DNA from: Promethearchaeia archaeon
Lineage (GTDB): Archaea > Asgardarchaeota > Lokiarchaeia > Sigyniarchaeales > SOKP01
DNA length: 64,000 nt
Assembly: GCA_029856155.1 (NCBI GenBank)
Contig: JAHQWL010000085.1
Location: forward strand, 29,846 to 93,845
Direction: 5' to 3'
A program made the position numbers and the translations under genes. Position 1 is the first letter of the stretch; each line of letters starts with the position of its first letter. Shown piece by piece: positions 40,477-52,703 of the stretch. The notes beneath the pieces were generated by a model, which saw only the letters and a list, made by a program, of their open reading frames with translations, was not told the DNA's origin and searched no databases.

Positions 40477-42060
40477 TCAGTTGGTTATTTTTACAGGTTT
40501 AGTTTCCTTTCTCACAAGAGGAATTATTTCCTTTTCGTTTCCACCAATTTTCGGTTTACTTGTAAATAAGGGTTTACCTGCTTTTCCTCTCGCCATAATT
40601 TCTGCCATTTCTTCAGATATAATTGATTGCGTGACTCCCATCGACATAAGCATCTCTCTGCCACTCCTAATCACTGTTTTAGCAAAACGCGGTATATTTC
40701 GCGTCATCCAATTGAATTTACCAAATGGATTACCATATCTTTTTATGAGCATTTTAAGCCAACCCTTACTAAGATAATAAGCAGAATACGCTTCACCCAC
40801 TAGTTGATACATTTCATTACTGCTTAGTTGTTCTGTACGCATCATAGGATGAAACAAATCATAATGCCGATAATCATTACTCGTAATCATATTTTTTTCT
40901 AACATTTCATTATAAAAGTCAGTTCCGGGAAAAGCTGTAATTGGTGTGAATTGAATACAACTCAAATTAAGTGATTTTGCATATTGAATATTTTGTCTTA
41001 CCATGGTTTTAGTTTCCCCTGGAAATCCAATGATCACGCCGCCAAAAATTGAAATTCCACGGTCCTGAAGCAATGAAACAACCTTTCTAACCATATCAGG
41101 AGTAGTATTTTGCTTATTCATTGCATCAAGGCTTTGTTGATGAACTGATTCGATCCCGAGAAAAACTTGTCTCATACCTGCTTTATGCATTAAATCAATT
41201 AACCAAGGATTTCTGTATAGCGAATCAACTCGGGATTGGCAAGAGAAAAGCATTTTATTAGGAACTCCTGAACGGATTATGGTTTCAAGAATCTCTTTTG
41301 TACGTTTTATTTTAATAGTAAAATTATCTTCACAGAAAAAGATAAAATCATTTTTCAAATCAATACTATAGATTTCTTGCATTATTCTTTTAGTAGATTT
41401 AGTTCTATAAGTTACGGCACGATCTGAATTTCTCCACATTTTTATGATACAACAGAATTTACAATTATGTGGACAACCTCGTGAGGTTTCAAGTTGAGCG
41501 ACTCTTGCACCTAGATAAACATAATTTTTATCGTCTAATAAATCTCTACGAGGCATAGGAAAATTATCCAAATTAGGCTCTAATTTTCGATCTTTGTTAT
41601 GAACTACTTGTCCTTCTTTGTTTTTATATGAAATTCCATCTATATTTCTTAACGTGGTGTTGCCTTTGTTTCCATCTATATAATCCACAAGTTCATGAAA
41701 AGTGTGTTCTCCTTCTCCCCTAACTGCATAATCTATCGCAGGATGTTTTGCTACGTATTCAGGGACCAGGGTTGGCTGATATCCACCAATAATTGTAGTA
41801 CAGCCTTGTTCTTTAGCCATTTGAGCTACTTCAAATGCATGAGAGATTTGGGGTGTCATACTTGTGAGAGCTACTATGTCACTCTGATTCAATAATGAAT
41901 TGAATTTTCTCTCATTATATTTGTGGACTTTAAAATCGAATAATTTCGCATCATGTTGTGGAACCATTGCTGCAATTGAAATTAAACTTAAAGGAGGACC
42001 TTTAATTATTGCATCAAGACCAGAACTTAATCGGGCGGGATTAACATATAGAATCTTCAA
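40477..42060 (-). CDS. Cobalamin-binding radical SAM enzyme
   Basis: PPLSL, GGYQPT, RGEGE, TSRGCPHNCKFC, LGIES, GFPGET. Confidence 0.93.
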   Translation of the reverse strand: MKILYVNPARLSSGLDAIIKGPPLSLISIAAMVPQHDAKLFDFKVHKYNERKFNSLLNQSDIVALTSMTPQISHAFEVAQMAKEQGCTTIIGGYQPTLVPEYVAKHPAIDYAVRGEGEHTFHELVDYIDGNKGNTTLRNIDGISYKNKEGQVVHNKDRKLEPNLDNFPMPRRDLLDDKNYVYLGARVAQLETSRGCPHNCKFCCIIKMWRNSDRAVTYRTKSTKRIMQEIYSIDLKNDFIFFCEDNFTIKIKRTKEILETIIRSGVPNKMLFSCQSRVDSLYRNPWLIDLMHKAGMRQVFLGIESVHQQSLDAMNKQNTTPDMVRKVVSLLQDRGISIFGGVIIGFPGETKTMVRQNIQYAKSLNLSCIQFTPITAFPGTDFYNEMLEKNMITSNDYRHYDLFHPMMRTEQLSSNEMYQLVGEAYSAYYLSKGWLKMLIKRYGNPFGKFNWMTRNIPRFAKTVIRSGREMLMSMGVTQSIISEEMAEIMARGKAGKPLFTSKPKIGGNEKEIIPLVRKETKPVKITN

Positions 42061-43724: not shown

Positions 43725-44609
43725 TTAAAACTGTTTAAAGAGTTTTATATTTCTACTTTTTATTATGTCTCTGAATTCTATTGATTGATACACCGATGTA
43801 AATGATTCTTTTGCATCTTCAATCGCTCCGTAAAAAATAAAGTTGGAAACCCATGCTACAATAAACATAATACTAGCCCTCCTATATCGAGTGTGGAATT
43901 TAATATTCAAGCGTGGAGAGGAGTATTGAAAAAGAAAGAGATTTGCAGCTGTACCTACTGGAAGTTTCAAGGATGTACTTACTAGTTGTTGTGTCTCTAG
44001 TATATGAGCTAAGCTTTCCAAATTAACAACACCTCCATCAATCCAGAATTTTTCAACACCAATCTTATTCAATCCCTCGAGTATATTCATATTATTCGGT
44101 TGATTTCTTTCAGTAAGGTATGCATATCTCTGGGTTGAAGTCATGTTTTCTGAACTGAGAATTAAAATTACGGCAGATTCTATTTTGTATTTCCTAATAA
44201 TTTCTATTTCTTTCTTGTTTTTTAGATTTGAAATTGTATTGTAAATATATTGATCTGGTTTTATGCCAAGTTCTGCAAGATATTCGATCCCAGCTACTCT
44301 TGATTCGAAATTTCCACCAAGTATAAATGGAGGATCATAATGATCTAAGAAAAATTCTAAATAATTTCTCATTGATTTAGCAGATGTAGCTGATATTTCC
44401 ACTAAATTAGGAATTTTATATTTTTTAGATAATGATATGTGAGTATTAATACGTTTCATTGCTTTAGATGAATTAAAAACTTCAGGATTCTTCCTATCTA
44501 CAATAGTTTCATTCTGATAAAAAATTGTACCAATTAAAATTGGTGGTAATTCAAAATTTCCTTTTCCCAATTTTATATTCCCATAAGAATAATAATCAGA
44601 ATTATCCAT
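43725..44609 (-). CDS. mtrH: MtrH-like (tetrahydromethanopterin methyltransferase subunit H family) protein
   Basis: PPILIGTIFY, IYNTIS, LKLPVGTAAN, FIFYGAIE; no other mtr genes adjacent. Confidence 0.78.
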   Translation of the reverse strand: MDNSDYYSYGNIKLGKGNFELPPILIGTIFYQNETIVDRKNPEVFNSSKAMKRINTHISLSKKYKIPNLVEISATSAKSMRNYLEFFLDHYDPPFILGGNFESRVAGIEYLAELGIKPDQYIYNTISNLKNKKEIEIIRKYKIESAVILILSSENMTSTQRYAYLTERNQPNNMNILEGLNKIGVEKFWIDGGVVNLESLAHILETQQLVSTSLKLPVGTAANLFLFQYSSPRLNIKFHTRYRRASIMFIVAWVSNFIFYGAIEDAKESFTSVYQSIEFRDIIKSRNIKLFKQF

Positions 44610-45218: not shown

Positions 45219-46424
45219 TTAATAAAGATGTAGTTTCACTTCACACTTTCTACAATGACCATCCTTTAATTTTTTAAAACAATCTTCATGATAAAGAGCG
45301 TTACATTGAAGATTACCACATTGAACTGCTGATTGACCTTTCTCAAAAATCAAATGACAAACCGGGCACGCATTAAATAAAGCTTCATCTCCAAGTATCC
45401 CCACATCTTGAATATATTTAGCAGGCATAAGATCAGGTTTTTTTGCTGTTTCTTCTTTCGAACCTTTTGTAAGAATACGTAATTTTTGAATTTGAGTGAC
45501 TTCTATAGGTATCTTCAAAAGGTAGAAACAATGTGGGCATCGGGCTGTGCCAGACCTTTTTATTTGATGATTTTTTTGAGAATCTGCCCATGCAGCTAAA
45601 CAATGTATATGAAAGGGTGTAGTACAATTAGGACAATATCTCCCAGTAACATAAAATGATCCTTTTGTATAAGGATTTTGATCAGAAAAGCAAATAGAAC
45701 ATTTTTTAAAATCACCTTCTCCACGTATCTGTTTTACACGTTGTTCTTGATCTTTTGTTAAATCCTGAACTCTCAGCAAATCTGCTGCAATTTTCCTAAG
45801 AAAAGCGGGGTTCTCGATAAGGACTTCTTTACTCGACCCATACGTTTTATAATTATCGTCAGCAATTTCTTGAGCCGATCTAATTAATGACTCAGGATCA
45901 TTATTATAAAAATTTCTACCCCCGGTTATGTCACTAATTTTTTTTAGTACATTATCTTTTCTTGTATTTCCAAGACCAAAAGTATCAATTCTGATATTTA
46001 AACCTTGAGCTAAACGCGCCATCTTTATAGGATCAGCTACAGTTCTCATATAATTCCCATCAGAGATCAGAACGATTCTAGGAGTTTTAGCACCAATCTT
46101 ACGCAATTCTGCTATAAGCGATTTAATTGATAACGCTAAAGCGTCACCCATAGCAGAATAACCACCACATTTAAGAGAATTTAAACCTTCAATGAGTTGA
46201 TTTTCAAAATTTGACGTAGTGAAGTCTATTATCTTTTTTGCTTTGTTAGAGTATTTTATTATAGAAAATGCACTTAAACTATCTAAATTAAACCTTTCTT
46301 TAATTAATGTTTTAATCGCAGATATACAGCATGTAAGTCGGTTAGGAGCAAAATCCTTTCTAAACATCGACCGTGATGTATCTATGCAAATTACTAGATT
46401 TTCGGGGATTCTATTCTCTGACAT
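45219..46424 (-). CDS. vWA domain plus two RING/PHD-like zinc fingers
   Basis: MIDAS DTSRS, LISDG; CSIC..CPNC..HIHC..CPHC and CPVC..C...C..HEDC..CRKC. Confidence 0.85.
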   Translation of the reverse strand: MSENRIPENLVICIDTSRSMFRKDFAPNRLTCCISAIKTLIKERFNLDSLSAFSIIKYSNKAKKIIDFTTSNFENQLIEGLNSLKCGGYSAMGDALALSIKSLIAELRKIGAKTPRIVLISDGNYMRTVADPIKMARLAQGLNIRIDTFGLGNTRKDNVLKKISDITGGRNFYNNDPESLIRSAQEIADDNYKTYGSSKEVLIENPAFLRKIAADLLRVQDLTKDQEQRVKQIRGEGDFKKCSICFSDQNPYTKGSFYVTGRYCPNCTTPFHIHCLAAWADSQKNHQIKRSGTARCPHCFYLLKIPIEVTQIQKLRILTKGSKEETAKKPDLMPAKYIQDVGILGDEALFNACPVCHLIFEKGQSAVQCGNLQCNALYHEDCFKKLKDGHCRKCEVKLHLY

Positions 46425-46645: not shown

Positions 46646-47854
46646 ATGTCAGATAATAGTGGAAAGAGTTTAGCAATTAAGGATTTCTTCAAAAGGAACG
46701 TTCTTATTAATGATCTTGAAGAGGTTTTGAGATTTAAACCCGATACATTAATAGGTGTTGATAAAATTAGTTCGGATCAATTATTTGATAAAGGAATAAA
46801 AACAATTGAGGATTTAGCTAACTTGTCTGTCGCAAATCTCCCCGAAATAAAAGAAATACTACCAAGTATGCTACAAAAATGGGTGAAAATTGCACAGGTA
46901 ATTCAAAAGAATGTTAAAGAACAATTGAGGAGACATAAAAAATTATTAATGATCGGTTTAGATAATGGTGGTAAAACATCTATACTTGCAGTAGTTCAAG
47001 ATAAATTCTCAATTATTAAATCTCTTTTACCCACAAGGGGTGTAAAGAGGGAAAAGCTTGATTTTTTTGGGTATCCAATAATTTCATGGGACTTAGGAGG
47101 TCAAGTCCAGTATCGAGAAAAACTGTATTTTAATCGACCAGAGCTTTTTTTCACTGAAGCTGATATTATGCTATATGTTGTCGATAGTCAAGATCCAGAT
47201 AGAATTCCTGAAGCCGCTAATTATTTTCGGGAGGTTTTAAAAGTATTAGAAGAGCTTCACGAAATACCTCCAGTTTTAATAGTTTTAAGCAAAAGTGATC
47301 AAGATGCTCGTAAAACACTTCAATGGCAACAAACTGTAACAAGTATAAAAAATAAATTCAATAGTATTGTTCAGGAATTTGAAGAATTTTCAATTGATTA
47401 CTGCGATACGACGATTTTTCAAAGAGAAAGTATCATGCAAATGTTCAGTACTGCATTAAAGAAAGTATCTGACACCTCTGAAATAATAGAAAATATCCTC
47501 GAGGAGTTCACACATCAAGTAGAGGGAAAAGCTTCAAGTTTAGTTTCAATGGATGGTCTTATTTTCGGTAGTTATACTGGATCTGATACAGATGAAATGC
47601 TAGTAAATAACACAGCTTTATTACTACAAACGCTTTCAAATTTTTATAATTCAATAGGTTTAATAAGAGAAAAATCTATAAGACTAGATTTACCACTTAA
47701 TGGATTTACAATTCGAGGTGAAAAATTATTTGAGTACTCTGAATTGCAGATTCCTGTATATTTATGGATGCTTTCTCAAAATCCAGAATTGTTAGAGGGA
47801 AAAATCGAATACTTTAAAGAGCAATTACTTCCGTTGATTAATCTTTTCCTATAA
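46646..47854 (+). CDS. Arf-like small GTPase with N-terminal HhH and C-terminal roadblock/longin-like domain
   Basis: LIGVD..GIKTIEDLA; GLDNGGKTS, PTRG, WDLGGQ, SKSD; C-terminal SLVSMDGLIFGS. Confidence 0.85.
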   Translation: MSDNSGKSLAIKDFFKRNVLINDLEEVLRFKPDTLIGVDKISSDQLFDKGIKTIEDLANLSVANLPEIKEILPSMLQKWVKIAQVIQKNVKEQLRRHKKLLMIGLDNGGKTSILAVVQDKFSIIKSLLPTRGVKREKLDFFGYPIISWDLGGQVQYREKLYFNRPELFFTEADIMLYVVDSQDPDRIPEAANYFREVLKVLEELHEIPPVLIVLSKSDQDARKTLQWQQTVTSIKNKFNSIVQEFEEFSIDYCDTTIFQRESIMQMFSTALKKVSDTSEIIENILEEFTHQVEGKASSLVSMDGLIFGSYTGSDTDEMLVNNTALLLQTLSNFYNSIGLIREKSIRLDLPLNGFTIRGEKLFEYSELQIPVYLWMLSQNPELLEGKIEYFKEQLLPLINLFL

Positions 47855-48348: not shown

Positions 48349-50760
48349 TTAAGTTCTACACAATCTTTTTAAGAGTGTAGGATCTATTATTTCTTTTGGC
48401 GTCCAACCTTTTTCCTTTAGGTACTCGTGAATTTCATCTTTCATGTTAATAGGAATGTCTGCCTCAACACGTACAAATTTCTCTAAGTCATTGGGAAATT
48501 GGACACCTTTGTATTTTTTCTCTAAATCAATCCAATGAGAAAGTTTAATCATTCTTCCTTTAGAGTTATCTGCAGGTCTTAAACATAATTTTGCTGCTAG
48601 ACAAATAGCTTGTTCAATACTTTCAGCAGTAGTTAATAAATGTTCTGGACCTGGACCAACTAAATGATCTGAGGTGCCATCTCTAGCATTCCATACTTTC
48701 CATGTATTTTCATCATCAGATCTGCCAATATACATACGTCTATATTCTGCTGAATGAGGTCCACATATTGCTGGTATTCCCATACCATTACAGCTACTGG
48801 CAATACTAGCGGCTTTTTGAGACATTGCACCCCAAGCAACTCCACAAGCACCTACACGGTTCAAAACATAATCCGCAATTTCCTCATAGTTACCTCGTAA
48901 TGGACGTCTAGCAAAAATATTAGCAACTTTTATTGCTGCCCCATTAATATGTGGGTTTGAAACGCATGAACCAACATTTACTAACCCTCCCCTATCAAAA
49001 TCACCGGGATATCTATCATAAAGTGTTTTACCATCTTCATCCTTTACAAGCCCTATATCCATAGCTCCGCAACCAGATACAACCACAATATAATTTCTTC
49101 TACAAAACTCTTCAGCCATTATATATAATTCTTGTATTTCTTTAGCATAATTAGCACAACCAATAATTGCAATGATTCCAGGAATTTCGCCTAAGACTAT
49201 GGGAGCTCCAACATTGCGAATTTCTGTGTCCATAATTGGACCGCGACCCGCTCTCATATTAAATTTTTCATTTCTAATCTTTTCACGTCCAGCGTACATT
49301 ATGAGAGTAAGAGGTGACACATTTTTCATACAATCTGATTCGCATCTTCCGCAATCTAAGCATTGATCAAAAACATCAGTCAATACTGAAAAATCACCAT
49401 CTTTTACCCTATTTACTCCTTCTACTAATGGTAAATCATTTGGACAATTTCTTTGACAGTTTCCACATCCATTGCAGTTCATTGCCATATCAATACAGCC
49501 TTTTTCATCAGGAACTGCACTTTTAGATTTTCTAATTGGTTTTACTTTAATGGCCGTTTCAACAGCAACTTTTCCTGCTTTTATTGGATCTAATATTAAT
49601 ACTCCATCAACTTTTCCACTGACTAAATCATCAATAATTTCTTCTGCAGGGTCATCTGTTCTATTAGGTAACCCTCCCATATTTTTTTCATTAGTCGCTA
49701 TAAACGGAGCATTTACGAGCTTTGCTTGCTCATAAGTACGTAAATGAACACATTGTTCATCTACCATAACAACATCAGCTAATCCAGAACGTATATAAAA
49801 CATCTGTCGAGCTAGTGAGCCAACAATCTTCGCACCATCAAAATATCTTGTCAAATCTATTGCAGTGCAACAAATTGCTCCCACATCTACCTTATCTTCA
49901 TAAGCCTTTTCCCTCATATAATCCACTAGTTCGATTCCTGGTGCTACGTTATGTCCAATCATTAAAATTGTTGCTTTATTTTCAGTATCCAGTGTACCCA
50001 TTCCTAATTCAATAATAGGAACGTCTGGTTCCCCCATAGGAAACCCGTAGGCAGAAATCTGAGCTGCATCAGATATTTCCATACCAACAGCATCTGCACA
50101 ACCTGCTAAAAATGCTTTCGCTTCATAATCAAGATAGCTAGATTCTTGCCCTGTATGCCCTGAGGCAAGAAGATGCGTAATCGTATAATGTACCCATTCC
50201 ATTGCGGTTTCCAAATCTTCTAAAGTTTCTGGTTTCATGCCAACAATTAATCGTGTACAAGGCATTTCAACCTCTATATTAGTTCCAAAATTTATTGGGA
50301 CATTACCATATTTCTCTTTAAGCCAGTGGAGCAGATGGTCACCATGAGCACTATGACATGATGCACCAATACAACAAGCAATTTCTACGATTTTTGCACA
50401 TGCAGTCTCCAGATTTATTCCGCATGCCCCAGTTCTGCCCTTGGAAAGGTTACATTTACCGAAAGTGCAATTACCCTTATAAAAGCTATGTTTTATAAGT
50501 TAAACAGCACATGTCACAAATTTGCCCATACTTTCTCTAAATGAAAGAATGCTTGGCATGTAAAACGGTTTGTACCTTTCCATGAGCTTGAAGAACCAAT
50601 TACGTAATGTAGGGATATGGGGCATCATCGTTGGGCCAATGGGTTCCCACTCTGTTTCGTCTCCATAACTTACTTTACCAGTGGTTAATTCAAATCCCTT
50701 GATTGTACCGAGTGGTCCTTTATATTCATCAATTTTAATTTTAGCTCCTCTTTTTTCCAT
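48349..50760 (-). CDS. cdhA: CO dehydrogenase/acetyl-CoA synthase alpha subunit, interrupted by two candidate BHB introns; exons 50760-50553, 50520-50501, 50469-48349 (782 aa spliced)
   Basis: WEPIGPT, RYKPFYMP, reconstructed ICDMCCLCTFGKC...GACG, CHSAHG, IGHNV, ICCTAIDL, two ferredoxin-type motifs, GCANY, GSCVSN, WGAMSQKA. Confidence 0.93.
50470..50500 (-). other. Candidate BHB mRNA intron 2 in cdhA (31 nt)
   Basis: ACUUAUAAAACAUAGCUUUUAUAAGGGUAAU; 9-bp inner stem, central helix UGUU/GGUA, bulges UA^A and AU^U, outer helix GUGC/GCAC; excision gives TGT TTA|TGC ACT TTC (C-L-C-T-F). Confidence 0.82.
50521..50552 (-). other. Candidate BHB mRNA intron 1 in cdhA (32 nt)
   Basis: GCAUUCUUUCAUUUAGAGAAAGUAUGGGCAAA; central helix UGCC/GGCA, bulges AA^G and AA^U; excision gives ATG CCA A|TT TGT GAC (M-P-I-C-D). 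Confidence 0.8.
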
Positions 50761-50947
50761 ATTTCAATTCACATTATTTATAGTTTGATTTTTTTTTGAT
50801 TTTTTAATATTTGATTATAATTAGAGTTATATTAGATTTTATTTTAATTATTATATTCCAAAACTCAAAATCTAATCTATATTAATTAAAAAAAGTGTGA
50901 AATTTCACTCAATATTGTATAATATAAAAAATAGAGAGAAATAAACT

Positions 50948-51541
50948 TTAAAGAGTAGATAAAAACTCTGAAACATTTTCTTCGGAATCCTCATCTATGA
51001 GGCTATCATCTAATTCTTTTCCAATGAACTGAAATTTGAATACGCATTTTTCATGTCCTAGTAAAACACATTCAATCTCCTCACCATCAACATCAATTAA
51101 CAAAGTCTCAAAGATTGCTAGAAAAATCCCTTGATAAAGTAAACAAAGATTTTTAGCCATAATATTATCGGATTCTTCTTTTGCTAGTGAATCTGATACC
51201 TTAATTAACATATGATCTTTTTTAAACACCCCTGTTAATTCTCCATAACCCATCAATTCCAATGCTTCAAGGTTTCCTATAATGACTTCTTTTTTTAATG
51301 CTAGAGTTTCTGAACTCCAATCTTTATTGTCGAAGAATTTTTCCATATATGCCCTTCCAAGAGTTTTCCCTACCCAAATAAGTATATCATCTGCATTTGC
51401 ACCAGCGAACTCGGAGAATTCAATTAAATCAATAGGTCTTAACATAAGTAAACGTAAATCTTTCTTTTTATCACCAAAAAATAATTGACCTGCTTTCTCT
51501 TCAATCATAATTTGTAATTCTTTTTTGAGTCTCTTAGACAT
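50948..51541 (-). CDS. V4R-domain protein
   Basis: LELMGYG, LCLLYQGIF, EIECVLLGHEKCVF. Confidence 0.82.
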   Translation of the reverse strand: MSKRLKKELQIMIEEKAGQLFFGDKKKDLRLLMLRPIDLIEFSEFAGANADDILIWVGKTLGRAYMEKFFDNKDWSSETLALKKEVIIGNLEALELMGYGELTGVFKKDHMLIKVSDSLAKEESDNIMAKNLCLLYQGIFLAIFETLLIDVDGEEIECVLLGHEKCVFKFQFIGKELDDSLIDEDSEENVSEFLSTL

Positions 51542-51704: not shown

Positions 51705-52703
51705 CTAGGAAGAGATCAAATCTAAAATCGCTGGAATTATATAATCGATATTATAATTGGTTTTTACTGAAGTAAATAATAATTTCCATCTTCGATCTTT
51801 TATTTTGTTTAAATTAAAAAATTCTGAAATTTCTCTTTTTAAGGTGTGAAATTCTTTTTTATAGGATTCCTTAGCATTTATGACTAAATCAGTTTTATTG
51901 CATATTAATAGTAATGGGACTGCTCTTAATTCATTGTTATTTATTACATTCCAAAACTCTTTTTTAGATTCCTCAAATCTTCTTTGATTAGCAATATCGA
52001 TCATATAAATAATAATGTTAGAATCTTGAAGCCCTATCAACCATCTTGATCTGAAAGTTTTTTGTCCCGGCATATCCCAAACCGCAAATAGCCCTTTTTC
52101 TTCTGCAGGTATATATTCAATGTTGAATTTTCGTGTTGAAGTAAAGAAATTATCGTTAAACTTACCAGTTTTTAACCGTCTTACTAAGCTAGATTTTCCA
52201 ACTTCATCAATACCAAAGAGGAAGACTTTGAAAAATGTATCTCTTTGATAATAATATTCAATTTCTGGAGGTTTTTCGATAACCTCCTCATAAAATCTAC
52301 GAATATCAATAAACATAGAAATTAGTAAATTTTCAATTTCGATTTCATCATTAAAGGAATATTCATTGCCATTTATCAATAATTCATTCAATAATTCCTT
52401 AAAGATATCCTTATAGTCGTAAGGGTTATCTTCATTATCAAAAATTAAACCGATTATAATTTTTCTATTAACACAGGAAGTATATATATTCAAATCATCG
52501 ATAAATTGAGCAATAGGTTCATCCATTTTAAAATGATTTGATGTTGATTTCGGAATAACATCTACATTGTCATGTTCTTTTATAATTTTATTAACAAGGA
52601 TTTTATCATTAATATTAATAATTTCATTAGGATAACAATAAATATTTAGATCTTCTAAATCTCGAATTTCATTTCCTTTGAATAAAAAGATGTTATGTAA
52701 CAA
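51705..52703 (-). CDS. Arf-like small GTPase with N-terminal longin-like domain
   Basis: GIDEVGKSS, WDMPGQ, CNKTD, TSVK; N-terminal alpha/beta domain (IIIGLIFDNEDNPYDY). Confidence 0.85.
   Translation of the reverse strand: MLHNIFLFKGNEIRDLEDLNIYCYPNEIININDKILVNKIIKEHDNVDVIPKSTSNHFKMDEPIAQFIDDLNIYTSCVNRKIIIGLIFDNEDNPYDYKDIFKELLNELLINGNEYSFNDEIEIENLLISMFIDIRRFYEEVIEKPPEIEYYYQRDTFFKVFLFGIDEVGKSSLVRRLKTGKFNDNFFTSTRKFNIEYIPAEEKGLFAVWDMPGQKTFRSRWLIGLQDSNIIIYMIDIANQRRFEESKKEFWNVINNNELRAVPLLLICNKTDLVINAKESYKKEFHTLKREISEFFNLNKIKDRRWKLLFTSVKTNYNIDYIIPAILDLISS

What the first reader, a model, noticed from the sequence alone, without database searches (positions are those of the whole stretch)
50501..50520. 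20-nt micro-exon carrying Fe-S ligand cysteines: both splicing events are needed for CODH
Seen in sequence: the middle exon TTTGTGACATGTGCTGTTTA encodes (I)CDMCCL. Its 5' part supports the outer helix of BHB1 and its 3' part forms the helices of BHB2, without overlap, so both can fold at once. Unspliced RNA stops at a TAA spanning the exon 2/intron 2 junction. Removing only intron 1 hits TAG inside intron 2. Removing only intron 2 frameshifts to a TAA about 18 codons later. The two inserts total 63 nt, so the flanking ORFs share a frame and the locus mimics a single nonsense mutation. Established: this Cys motif ligates the N-terminal Fe-S clusters of CODH. Inference: the introns sit in the most conserved segment, as parasitic introns do, or make enzyme output depend on EndA/RtcB activity.
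Basis: partly seen in the sequence, partly recalled or inferred. Interest (0 to 1): 0.75.

Follow-up and report, generated by a model that had tools for sequence, protein, structure and literature searches.

The report
Two tRNA-type introns split Asgard CODH gene
The only gene for the CO-dehydrogenase subunit CdhA in this Loki-type Asgard archaeon is broken by two tiny tRNA-style introns around a 20-base exon that encodes iron-sulfur-binding cysteines; public RNA data show both introns cut out exactly as predicted, a kind of mRNA splicing published so far for essentially one archaeal coding gene.

Summary
cdhA (minus strand, 48349-50760) is interrupted by a 32-nt and a 31-nt insert flanking the 20-nt micro-exon 50501-50520. 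Removing both gives an open 782-aa CdhA reading FYMP-ICDMCCL-CTFGKC, which fills a 7-residue gap against solved CdhA structures.

Each insert fits the archaeal bulge-helix-bulge (BHB) cut rule. Covariation across relatives supports both motifs (92-95% of cells paired, against 25-56% in slid controls).

A metatranscriptome contig with no mismatches carries both joints at the predicted bases. A contig from a second study carries the intron 1 joint.

The genome encodes two EndA paralogues and one RtcB. dN/dS is about 0.05, so the gene is not a pseudogene.

The BHB shape alone is not enriched over chance. The case rests on frame restoration, comparison and RNA.

The parasitic reading is favoured. 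In Promethearchaeota, cdhA carries such introns at seven sites, five of them within this 8-codon motif. Their distribution is very patchy, and a 94%-identical element occurs at two different sites. A regulatory role is untested and looks less likely.

The scan had already noted similar introns in at least 8 other genes of this genome, and had read this stretch once before.

The parts
50553..50760 (-). cdhA exon 1 (Met1 to Pro69 plus the first base of the Ile70 codon)
   Evidence: ORF and translation. It matches residues 22-64 of CdhA 8riu_A. RNA contigs cover it.
50521..50552 (-). Intron 1, 32 nt, BHB type (relaxed: 4-nt 3' bulge). Cut AA|G at the 5' side and AA|T at the 3' side.
   Evidence: The BHB cut rule restores the frame. 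Covariation: 92% of cells paired, central helix 100%. RNA joint 50520/50553 is seen in X15 and X19; the joint can slide by 2 nt because of a repeated AA.
50501..50520 (-). 20-nt micro-exon encoding (I)CDMCCL: the C-X2-C D-cluster motif plus the first B-cluster Cys
   Evidence: Intron-less relatives have the same 21 nt. It is present between both joints in RNA contig X19 record 14.
50470..50500 (-). Intron 2, 31 nt, BHB type with canonical geometry: 9-bp inner hairpin, cuts TA|A and AT|T
   Evidence: Covariation: 95% of cells paired, 8 pairs with double changes, 0 of 500 shuffles reach the observed values. The canonical register beats the shifted one, 92.5% against 67%. RNA joint 50469/50501 is in X19.
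48349..50469 (-). cdhA exon 3 (Cys77 to the stop codon; 706 codons)
   Evidence: E = 3.7e-247 to CdhA 8riu_A. Pfam Prismane/CODH plus 4Fe-4S domains. dN/dS is 0.04-0.06.
50555..50558 (-). BHB1 central helix, exon strand (TGCC). It pairs with intron bases 50523-50526 (GGCA).
   Evidence: Four Watson-Crick pairs. Pair probability 0.85-0.99. 100% of cells paired in relatives, with C>U and A>G wobble changes.
50503..50506 (-). BHB2 central helix, micro-exon strand (TGTT). It pairs with intron bases 50472-50475 (GGTA).
   Evidence: One Watson-Crick pair plus three G-U pairs. 92.5% of cells paired in relatives, with exon and intron changing together at the third pair (CG, UG, UA). Not favoured by the energy model here.
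50567..50587 (-). Exon 1 strand of a long 'clamp' stem that encloses both BHB motifs. It pairs with exon 3 bases 50437-50460.
   Evidence: In the MFE fold, with pair probabilities mostly 0.97 or higher. Clamp duplex is -15 to -19.7 kcal/mol in all 10 two-intron carriers, against a median of -7.8 in 112 intron-less sequences (descriptive, rows are not independent).
50437..50460 (-). Exon 3 strand of the clamp stem

Best explanation
The single cdhA gene of this Promethearchaeota (Loki-type Asgard) genome encodes the Ni-CODH alpha subunit of acetyl-CoA decarbonylase/synthase. It is split, inside the codons for the Fe-S cluster motif P-I-C-D-M-C-C-L-C, by two archaeal bulge-helix-bulge mini-introns of 32 and 31 nt separated by a 20-nt micro-exon.

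In the pre-mRNA each intron folds with its exon flanks into helix-bulge-helix-bulge-helix. The two motifs use different parts of the micro-exon and sit inside a long exon 1-exon 3 clamp stem.

The tRNA-splicing endonuclease (EndA, probably an alpha-beta heterotetramer) cuts between bulge nucleotides 2 and 3 on each strand. RtcB joins the three exons. Only the doubly spliced mRNA encodes full-length CdhA; the other three forms terminate within 26 codons of the first junction.

The introns are most likely selfish or neutral mobile elements rather than a dedicated switch. They belong to a population of mini-introns that has repeatedly entered, or been precisely lost from, this motif in related genomes.

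Shown: the anatomy, the exact restoration of the frame, covariation, the spliced RNA, the presence of the enzyme genes, purifying selection, and the patchy multi-site distribution. Inferred: that EndA and RtcB are the enzymes, and how the introns move.
For: - Frame restoration and a 7-residue homology gap filled exactly.
- Intron-less relatives have exactly the 21 nt of the spliced product.
- The canonical cut rule gives an in-frame, homologous product in all 30 intron instances at 7 sites.
- Covariation at site E: 95.3% of cells paired, 8 pairs with compensatory changes, 0 of 500 shuffles, slid controls 35-55%.
- Covariation at site B: 92.1% paired, slid controls 25-49%.
- RNA: X19 contig of 221 nt, 0 mismatches, maps 50301-50469|50501-50520|50553-50583. 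X15 contig from another study carries the intron 1 joint.
- The nearest intron-less relative is only 88% identical over those 220 nt.
- Two EndA paralogues: one keeps Tyr/His/Lys, the other lacks the His. There is one RtcB.
- cdhA is single-copy and CdhC is present elsewhere.
- dN/dS is 0.057 between two interrupted copies, the same as for intron-less pairs.
- Mobility and patchiness: at least 6 state changes for 12 carriers at site B and at least 7 for 14 at site E. For most of the 16 carrier lineages the nearest sequence is intron-less. The L062 site-B intron is 94% identical to the G044 site-A intron, against a null maximum of 72%.
- uL11 in the same genome is also in three pieces.
Against: - The RNA evidence is from assembled contigs, not reads. 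No DNA run was laid, so an intron-less allele with identical exons cannot be strictly excluded.
- One RNA-library contig (X18) is colinear with the DNA through both introns.
- The BHB-like shape alone is not enriched, either in the window or in the genome.
- BHB1 has a 4-nt 3' bulge.
- The canonical central helix of BHB2 has a probability near 0 in the energy model for this sequence.
- EndA/RtcB dependence is inferred only.
- Counts of gains and losses rest on a FastTree topology and on rows that are not independent.
Confidence: 0.9

Rival explanations
1. Regulatory switch. The introns are kept because two-step splicing makes CODH output depend on EndA/RtcB activity or on a condition-sensitive RNA fold (redox, temperature, growth). 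Unspliced and half-spliced mRNAs then act as an off state.
For: All three incompletely spliced forms truncate the protein before the Fe-S motif is complete. An unspliced form is present in one RNA library (X18). The weak G-U-rich central helix of BHB2 could make cutting rate-limiting. A clamp stem specific to carriers suggests a selected structure.
Against: The nearest relatives of the window lineage and of most other carrier lineages lack the introns. Intron sequences at the same site are unrelated between lineages. Seven different sites are used. A housekeeping gene (uL11) in the same genome is interrupted in the same way. No quantitative or condition-dependent data exist. The unspliced contig may be DNA carry-over.
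Confidence: 0.1
2. The 'spliced' RNA contigs come from DNA or RNA of an unsampled intron-less strain with identical exons. The interrupted gene in this genome is then not spliced and is a recently inactivated gene.
For: RNA libraries can contain DNA. Only contigs were available and no DNA run was laid. Intron-less and intron-bearing copies can be close: G005 against G003 has dS of 0.2.
Against: The contig matches the window's exons with 0 mismatches over 220 nt. The closest intron-less sequence among about 230 loci is 88% identical there, and the exon flanks of carriers are distinctive. Two libraries from two studies show the joint. Interrupted copies in at least 6 lineages keep intact 706-codon exons with dN/dS of 0.05. 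Covariation maintains the BHB helices, which a dead gene would not do.
Confidence: 0.03
3. The gene is read through at the level of translation (two ribosomal bypass or frameshift events), or the inserts are assembly or sequencing artefacts.
For: The locus looks like a single in-frame stop, and hairpins are present at both inserts.
Against: The joints are seen in RNA. The same inserts occur in independent assemblies and metagenome contigs from many studies and in DNA runs holding 0.9-0.99 of the words. The micro-exon is in a different frame from both neighbours, so two precise hops would be needed. No Rfam family matches.
Confidence: 0.01

Closest known systems
BHB intron in the cbf5 (pseudouridine synthase) pre-mRNA of Crenarchaeota (Watanabe 2002; Yokobori 2009, PMC2738675)
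   Same: A small tRNA-type intron sits inside a protein-coding sequence. It is removed by the tRNA-splicing endonuclease and a ligase, it is needed to restore the frame, and lineage-specific loss has been documented.
   Different: cbf5 has one intron at one site, inherited from a common ancestor of two orders with at least two losses. Here there are two introns 20 nt apart in a metabolic enzyme of an Asgard archaeon. Relatives use seven sites in the same gene, the distribution within one genus is extremely patchy, and near-identical elements occur at different sites.
Multiple and non-canonical BHB introns in archaeal tRNA genes, including the heavily interrupted tRNA genes of Asgard archaea (Marck and Grosjean 2003; bioRxiv 10.64898/2026.10.13.758758)
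   Same: Same motif, same cut rule and similar size (9-45 nt for most tRNA introns of this genome). Several introns per gene with very short exons, repeated independent gains, and an EndA with two paralogues.
   Different: The host here is an mRNA coding sequence, so the reading frame and codon choice are constrained together with the helices. No sequence similarity to this genome's ARAGORN-called tRNA introns was found (best 0.71, at the null level).
BHB intron in the 5' UTR of Haloferax volcanii HVO_1309 mRNA (PMC7714728)
   Same: An mRNA substrate of the archaeal splicing endonuclease, confirmed in vivo and in vitro.
   Different: It lies in the untranslated leader, not in the coding sequence, and there is a single intron.
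HAC1/XBP1 mRNA splicing by IRE1 and RtcB in eukaryotes (own knowledge; XBP1 intron mentioned in PMC12530127)
   Same: Works alike: a tiny intron defined by RNA stem-loops is removed by a protein endonuclease and the exons are joined by an RtcB-type ligase. Removal changes the reading frame.
   Different: The endonuclease is different (IRE1). It is a proven stress-regulated switch with one conserved intron, and there is no evidence of mobility.
Homing group I introns and inteins in conserved motifs of essential genes
   Same: Insertion into the most conserved segment of a gene, patchy distribution among close relatives, and flanking exon sequence that differs between carriers and non-carriers.
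   Different: At 31-32 nt these introns have no ribozyme and no endonuclease ORF. No Rfam match. The mechanism of movement is unknown.

Membership tests
Archaeal BHB (tRNA-type) intron | [quoted passage not shown] | tested here: met
   Intron 2 has exact geometry. Its central helix is paired in 92.5% of cells across relatives, against 67% for the rival register. Intron 1 has a 4/4 Watson-Crick central helix and a 3-nt 5' bulge, but its 3' bulge is 4 nt, so it is a relaxed variant.
Archaeal BHB (tRNA-type) intron | Flanking helices: an outer one made of exon sequence and an inner one made of intron sequence | tested here: met
   The inner hairpins show 6-7 pairs with compensatory double changes. 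The outer helices are 97-100% paired.
Archaeal BHB (tRNA-type) intron | Cuts between bulge nucleotides 2 and 3 on both strands, with exons joined precisely | tested here: met
   The RNA joints 50469/50501 and 50520/50553 coincide with the positions the rule predicts. For intron 1 the joint is ambiguous by 2 nt. The rule restores the frame in all 30 instances at 7 sites.
Archaeal BHB (tRNA-type) intron | Removal by EndA and ligation by RtcB | not testable with these tools
   The genes are present: two EndA paralogues (198 and 202 aa) and one RtcB. Dependence on them is not shown.
Archaeal BHB (tRNA-type) intron | The excised intron is released, often as a circle | not tested
   No small-RNA or circRNA data were examined.
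CdhA / Ni-CODH alpha subunit of the ACDS complex | Full-length homology to solved CdhA and the Prismane/CODH fold, with an inserted 2x[4Fe-4S] domain | tested here: met
   E = 3.7e-247 to 8riu_A and 3.5e-219 to 3cf4_A. Pfam PF03063 plus Fer4 families.
CdhA / Ni-CODH alpha subunit of the ACDS complex | N-terminal Cys motif for the D and B clusters (C-X2-C-C-X-C-X4-C) | tested here: met
   It is present only in the doubly spliced product. The motif definition comes from PMC9782325. It is identical in about 100 intron-less relatives.
Self-splicing group I / group II intron | A ribozyme core of hundreds of nucleotides | tested here: not met
   The inserts are 31-32 nt, and no Rfam match has E up to 1.

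The most novel reading that the evidence does not exclude
The cdhA inserts are members of a so far undescribed class of mobile BHB mini-introns in Asgard archaea. These elements transpose between sites and genomes inside protein-coding genes, and they choose or reshape targets whose exon sequence can supply half of the splicing motif. The Fe-S motif of cdhA is a recurrent landing site (five sites in 8 codons). Carriers share a homogenised exon patch of about 75 nt and a clamp stem, which would be a footprint either of homing-like co-conversion or of exon-intron co-adaptation. If so, the closest prokaryotic relatives of eukaryotes have a dynamic population of protein-spliced mRNA introns with micro-exons.
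Probability: 0.4. Interest if true: 0.9.

Novelty: new variant of a known kind. Interest (0 to 1): 0.8.

Why it matters
In the papers I could search, splicing of archaeal mRNA coding sequences by the tRNA-splicing machinery is documented for one gene (cbf5), plus one 5' UTR. This case has several features that go beyond that:

- A key carbon-fixation enzyme needs two such splicing events around a 20-nt exon.
- There is direct RNA support in public data.
- It occurs in the lineage closest to eukaryotes.

It shows that gene callers will truncate or miss such genes: here a 782-aa enzyme is read as an 86-aa ORF plus an N-terminally truncated downstream ORF (638 aa from the first ATG). That can wrongly remove the Wood-Ljungdahl pathway from metabolic reconstructions of Asgard genomes.

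The multi-site, patchy pattern, with the same element at different sites, makes intron gain, loss and mobility in a prokaryote directly testable. That bears on long-standing questions about how introns spread through coding genes before or outside the spliceosome.

Tried and rejected
1. **Motif-only detection.** Strict BHB geometry gives 15 hits in the window against 7-23 in Markov-simulated windows. The other hits do not rescue any ORF. One lies inside conserved cdhA coding sequence (49753-49784).
2. **Genome-wide signature search.** A search for the family signature (hairpin followed by GGTA-AA/AT with a 4/4 central helix) gave 35 hits against about 29 expected.
3. **Genome-wide ORF-fusion test.** 19 BHB candidates passed against about 15 per displaced control. 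It cannot detect micro-exon genes either. I dropped it as uninformative.
4. **Covariance model.** Model R1, built from site-E introns, found only cdhA intron 2 in the genome when searched against the window's own genome. Only 150 of 3628 candidates were scored, so absence is not shown.
5. **Similarity to tRNA introns.** The best identity between cdhA introns and ARAGORN-called tRNA introns of this genome is 0.71, which is at the null level.
6. **Mixed-site alignment.** MAFFT alignments of introns from all sites (A3, A4) were not structurally consistent, so I did not use them for pair counts.
7. **RNA runs.** X18 and X20 gave no joints. Parts of the gene without contig cover say nothing.
8. **Rfam.** No match at the locus.
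9. **Literature.** Searches for Asgard mRNA BHB introns found none. The library lacks most subscription journals, so this is not proof of absence.
Full report
**Observation**

The gene lies on the minus strand. Frame 0 from the ATG at 50760 reads 86 codons and stops at a TAA. After that stop the same frame runs for 715 codons, and from the tenth it reads CTFGKC. Another frame of the stretch in between reads ICDMCCL.

This gives a single open frame of 782 codons with FYMP-ICDMCCL-CTFGKC at the junctions.

Exon 3 matches solved CdhA chains from residue 71 of 8riu_A onwards (E = 3.7e-247). Exon 1 matches up to residue 64. The gap is 7 residues, the length of ICDMCCL. Pfam finds Prismane/CODH and 4Fe-4S domains.

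**BHB anatomy**

The archaeal rule is: outer helix, 4-bp central helix, 3-nt bulge cut between nucleotides 2 and 3, inner helix, and the mirror image on the 3' strand. Under this rule:

- Intron 1 has central helix TGCC/GGCA, 5' bulge AA|G, and an inner helix of 3+5 bp. Its 3' bulge is AA|T plus one extra T before a 5-bp outer helix.
- Intron 2 has outer helix GTGC/GCAC, central helix TGTT/GGTA (one Watson-Crick and three G-U pairs), bulges TA|A and AT|T, and a perfect 9-bp inner hairpin.

The cuts predicted by the rule are the very cuts that restore the frame. The MFE folds show both motifs together. In a 203-nt context they sit inside a long exon 1-exon 3 stem, 50567-50587 with 50437-50460. 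Removing either intron in silico leaves the pair probabilities of the other motif unchanged, so the order of excision need not matter.

One caveat applies. The energy model gives a probability near zero to the canonical central helix of intron 2 and prefers a register shifted by one to two bases.

**Chance control**

The shape alone proves nothing in this 30% G+C genome.

- Strict BHB geometry occurs 15 times in the window, against 7-23 times in simulated sequence. The other hits do not rescue any frame.
- Genome-wide motif and ORF-fusion scans were likewise not enriched.

The evidence therefore has to come from elsewhere, and it does.

**Comparative evidence**

cdhA is single-copy here. In 54 genomes of the genus, most copies are continuous and have exactly 21 nt encoding ICDMCCL between the two anchors. 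Several have truncated frames. The same picture comes from 80 metagenome contigs and 80 species-level genome contigs, the latter titled Promethearchaeota or Promethearchaeia MAGs.

Inserts of 29-34 nt occur at seven sites:

| Site | Position | Size | Carriers |
|---|---|---|---|
| A | Codon about 46 | 31-32 nt | G044, G061, L051 |
| B | Ile70, phase 1 | 29-33 nt | Window, G066, G005, G042, L062, L090, L091, L112, L136 |
| B' | Ile70, phase 2 | 34 nt | G016, a second copy in G002, G044, L048, L068, L174 |
| C | Asp72, phase 1 | 33 nt | L113 |
| D | Between Asp72 and Met73 | 30-31 nt | L070, L111, L165, L177, L201 |
| E | Between Leu76 and Cys77 | 31 nt | All site-B carriers above except L136, plus G053, L103, L104, L106, L149 |
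| F | Inside CH\|SAHG | 30 nt | G069, L111 |

In all 30 instances tabulated, the canonical cut rule gives an in-frame, homologous product, and the central helix has at least 3 of 4 pairs.

Covariation was counted on gap-free or nearly gap-free alignments:

- Site E: 95.3% of cells paired, 8 of 17 pairs with changes on both sides, none of 500 shuffles as high, slid controls 35-55%.
- Site B: 92.1% paired, 6 pairs with double changes, slid controls 25-49%.
- In the central helix of site E, the exon base and the intron base change together (CG, UG, UA).
- The canonical register is paired in 92.5% of cells, against 67% for the register the energy model prefers.

**RNA evidence**

Four metatranscriptome runs hold parts of the gene. 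When laid on the gene:

- X19 record 14 (221 nt, depth 5.6, no mismatch) maps as 50301-50469, 50501-50520, 50553-50583. Both introns are removed at the predicted bases and the micro-exon is retained.
- X15 record 5 comes from a different study. It maps as 50553-50794 then 50501-50520, with five further letters too short to place.
- X18 record 10 (three mismatches) runs colinear through both introns. It is either unspliced RNA or DNA carry-over.

However, the most similar intron-less sequence among about 230 loci is only 88% identical over the 220 nt that the spliced contig matches perfectly. The contig therefore cannot stem from any known intron-less relative.

**Machinery and selection**

- The genome has two EndA paralogues. 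One (198 aa) keeps the Tyr/His/Lys pattern. The other (202 aa) lacks the His. Together they suggest a catalytic plus structural pair, as in the broad-specificity heterotetramers. This agrees with the preprint on Asgard tRNA introns.
- There is one RtcB.
- CdhC is encoded elsewhere in the genome.
- dN/dS over the 706 codons of exon 3 is 0.057 between two interrupted copies (G000 and G005) and 0.04-0.06 in all other pairs. The interrupted genes are therefore under the same purifying selection as the continuous ones.

**Parasite or switch?**

Intron presence does not follow the gene tree.

- G005 (both introns) and G003 (none) differ by dS 0.2. G000 is closer to intron-less G018 (dS 0.84) than to G005 (dS 1.33).
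- On a tree of 150 sequences, site B needs at least 6 changes for 12 carriers and site E at least 7 for 14.
- A tree-free view finds 16 carrier lineages; for most of them the nearest sequence is an intron-less one.
- Introns at the same site can be unrelated in sequence (window against G005 at site B). Introns at different sites can be nearly identical: L062 at site B and G044 at site A are 94% identical, against a null maximum of 72%.
- Many introns share the outline A-CTT, stem, CATAG-like loop, stem, AAG-GGTA-AA/AT.

This is the pattern of a mobile element population, or at least of frequent precise gain and loss. It is not the pattern of a conserved regulatory device. uL11 in the same genome is also in three pieces with stop-containing spacers of about 33 nt. 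That agrees with earlier notes of this scan, which list similar introns in other genes of this genome.

A regulatory role is not excluded, but nothing here supports it.

**Unexplained**

Carriers share a distinctive exon patch. Window against G005 is 97-100% identical over about 75 nt around the sites, against a background of 63-83%. Window against its nearest intron-less relative drops to 70-80% there, against a background of 90-100%.

There are two possible explanations:

- The patch travels with the introns (co-conversion).
- The exon bases are held by the BHB helices and the clamp stem.

The clamp duplex is -15 to -19.7 kcal/mol in all ten two-intron carriers, against a median of -7.8 in 112 intron-less sequences (the rows are not independent). 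That favours a structural component.

Why five of the seven sites fall within 8 codons also remains open.

**Comparison with what is known**

In the library I could search, the published archaeal mRNA BHB introns are:

- the cbf5 intron of Crenarchaeota: one site, ancestral, with at least two losses (PMC2738675);
- a 5' UTR intron in Haloferax (PMC7714728).

The recent Asgard preprint treats tRNA genes only. Further searches found nothing on Asgard mRNA introns.

The assignment of the Cys motif to the D and B clusters agrees with the CODH literature (C-X2-C or C-X7-C D-cluster motif; PMC9782325). It also agrees with the alignment of exon 3's first Cys to residue 51 of CODH-II chains.

**Verdict**

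- It is a new variant of a known kind: tandem BHB introns with a micro-exon in a metabolic gene of an Asgard archaeon, with RNA support, and part of a dynamic multi-site intron population.
- Confidence that these are RNA-level BHB-type introns is 0.9.
- Interest is 0.8.

Noticed in passing
window 51705-52703 (-), 46646-47854 (+), 45219-46424 (-), 50948-51541 (-): The neighbours of cdhA are eukaryote-like signature proteins typical of Asgard archaea: two Arf/RagA-family small GTPases with long N-terminal extensions, a VWA plus RING-finger protein, and a V4R-domain protein. cdhA is not in an operon with other cdh genes here.
   Followed up: partly
window 43725-44609 (-) and 40477-42060 (-): An MtrH-family methyltransferase and a B12-binding radical SAM protein lie downstream of cdhA.
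   Followed up: no
L042:548-584 (G069) and L111 about 560-680: Another 30-nt BHB-type intron sits inside the conserved CH|SAHG motif of cdhA in two relatives. L111 carries this one together with a site-D intron.
   Followed up: partly
L022 (G022:C22): This cdhA copy has a degraded site-B' intron (33 nt) and a motif that no longer encodes ICDMCCL. It is followed by high-G+C sequence and a run of N. It is probably a decaying copy or a chimeric scaffold.
   Followed up: no
L023, L024, L025 (other families of the same order): More distant CdhA homologues read INDVCEL, VNDICEL or ISDRCEL at the motif, so they lack two of the three micro-exon cysteines, including the first Cys of the C-X2-C pair. 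None of them has introns there.
   Followed up: no
G000 C44 about 135,900-136,400 (L208:1210-1400): The only uL11 gene is in three pieces (ALVTGGSA / ASGGPPIA / PSVGPTGINIK) separated by spacers of about 33 nt that contain stops. This is consistent with two more mini-introns and a short middle exon. My strict BHB scanner did not call them.
   Followed up: partly
whole genome G000: ARAGORN finds only 28 tRNA genes in this 97%-complete 4.1-Mb genome, 14 of them with introns of 9-529 nt. Many tRNA genes are probably hidden by multiple or non-canonical introns.
   Followed up: no
window 49753-49784 (-): A perfect-looking BHB shape (4/4 central helix, outer helix 4 bp) lies inside conserved, continuous cdhA coding sequence (RSGLADVVMVDEQCV). 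It is a chance look-alike and a warning against motif-only calls.
   Followed up: yes
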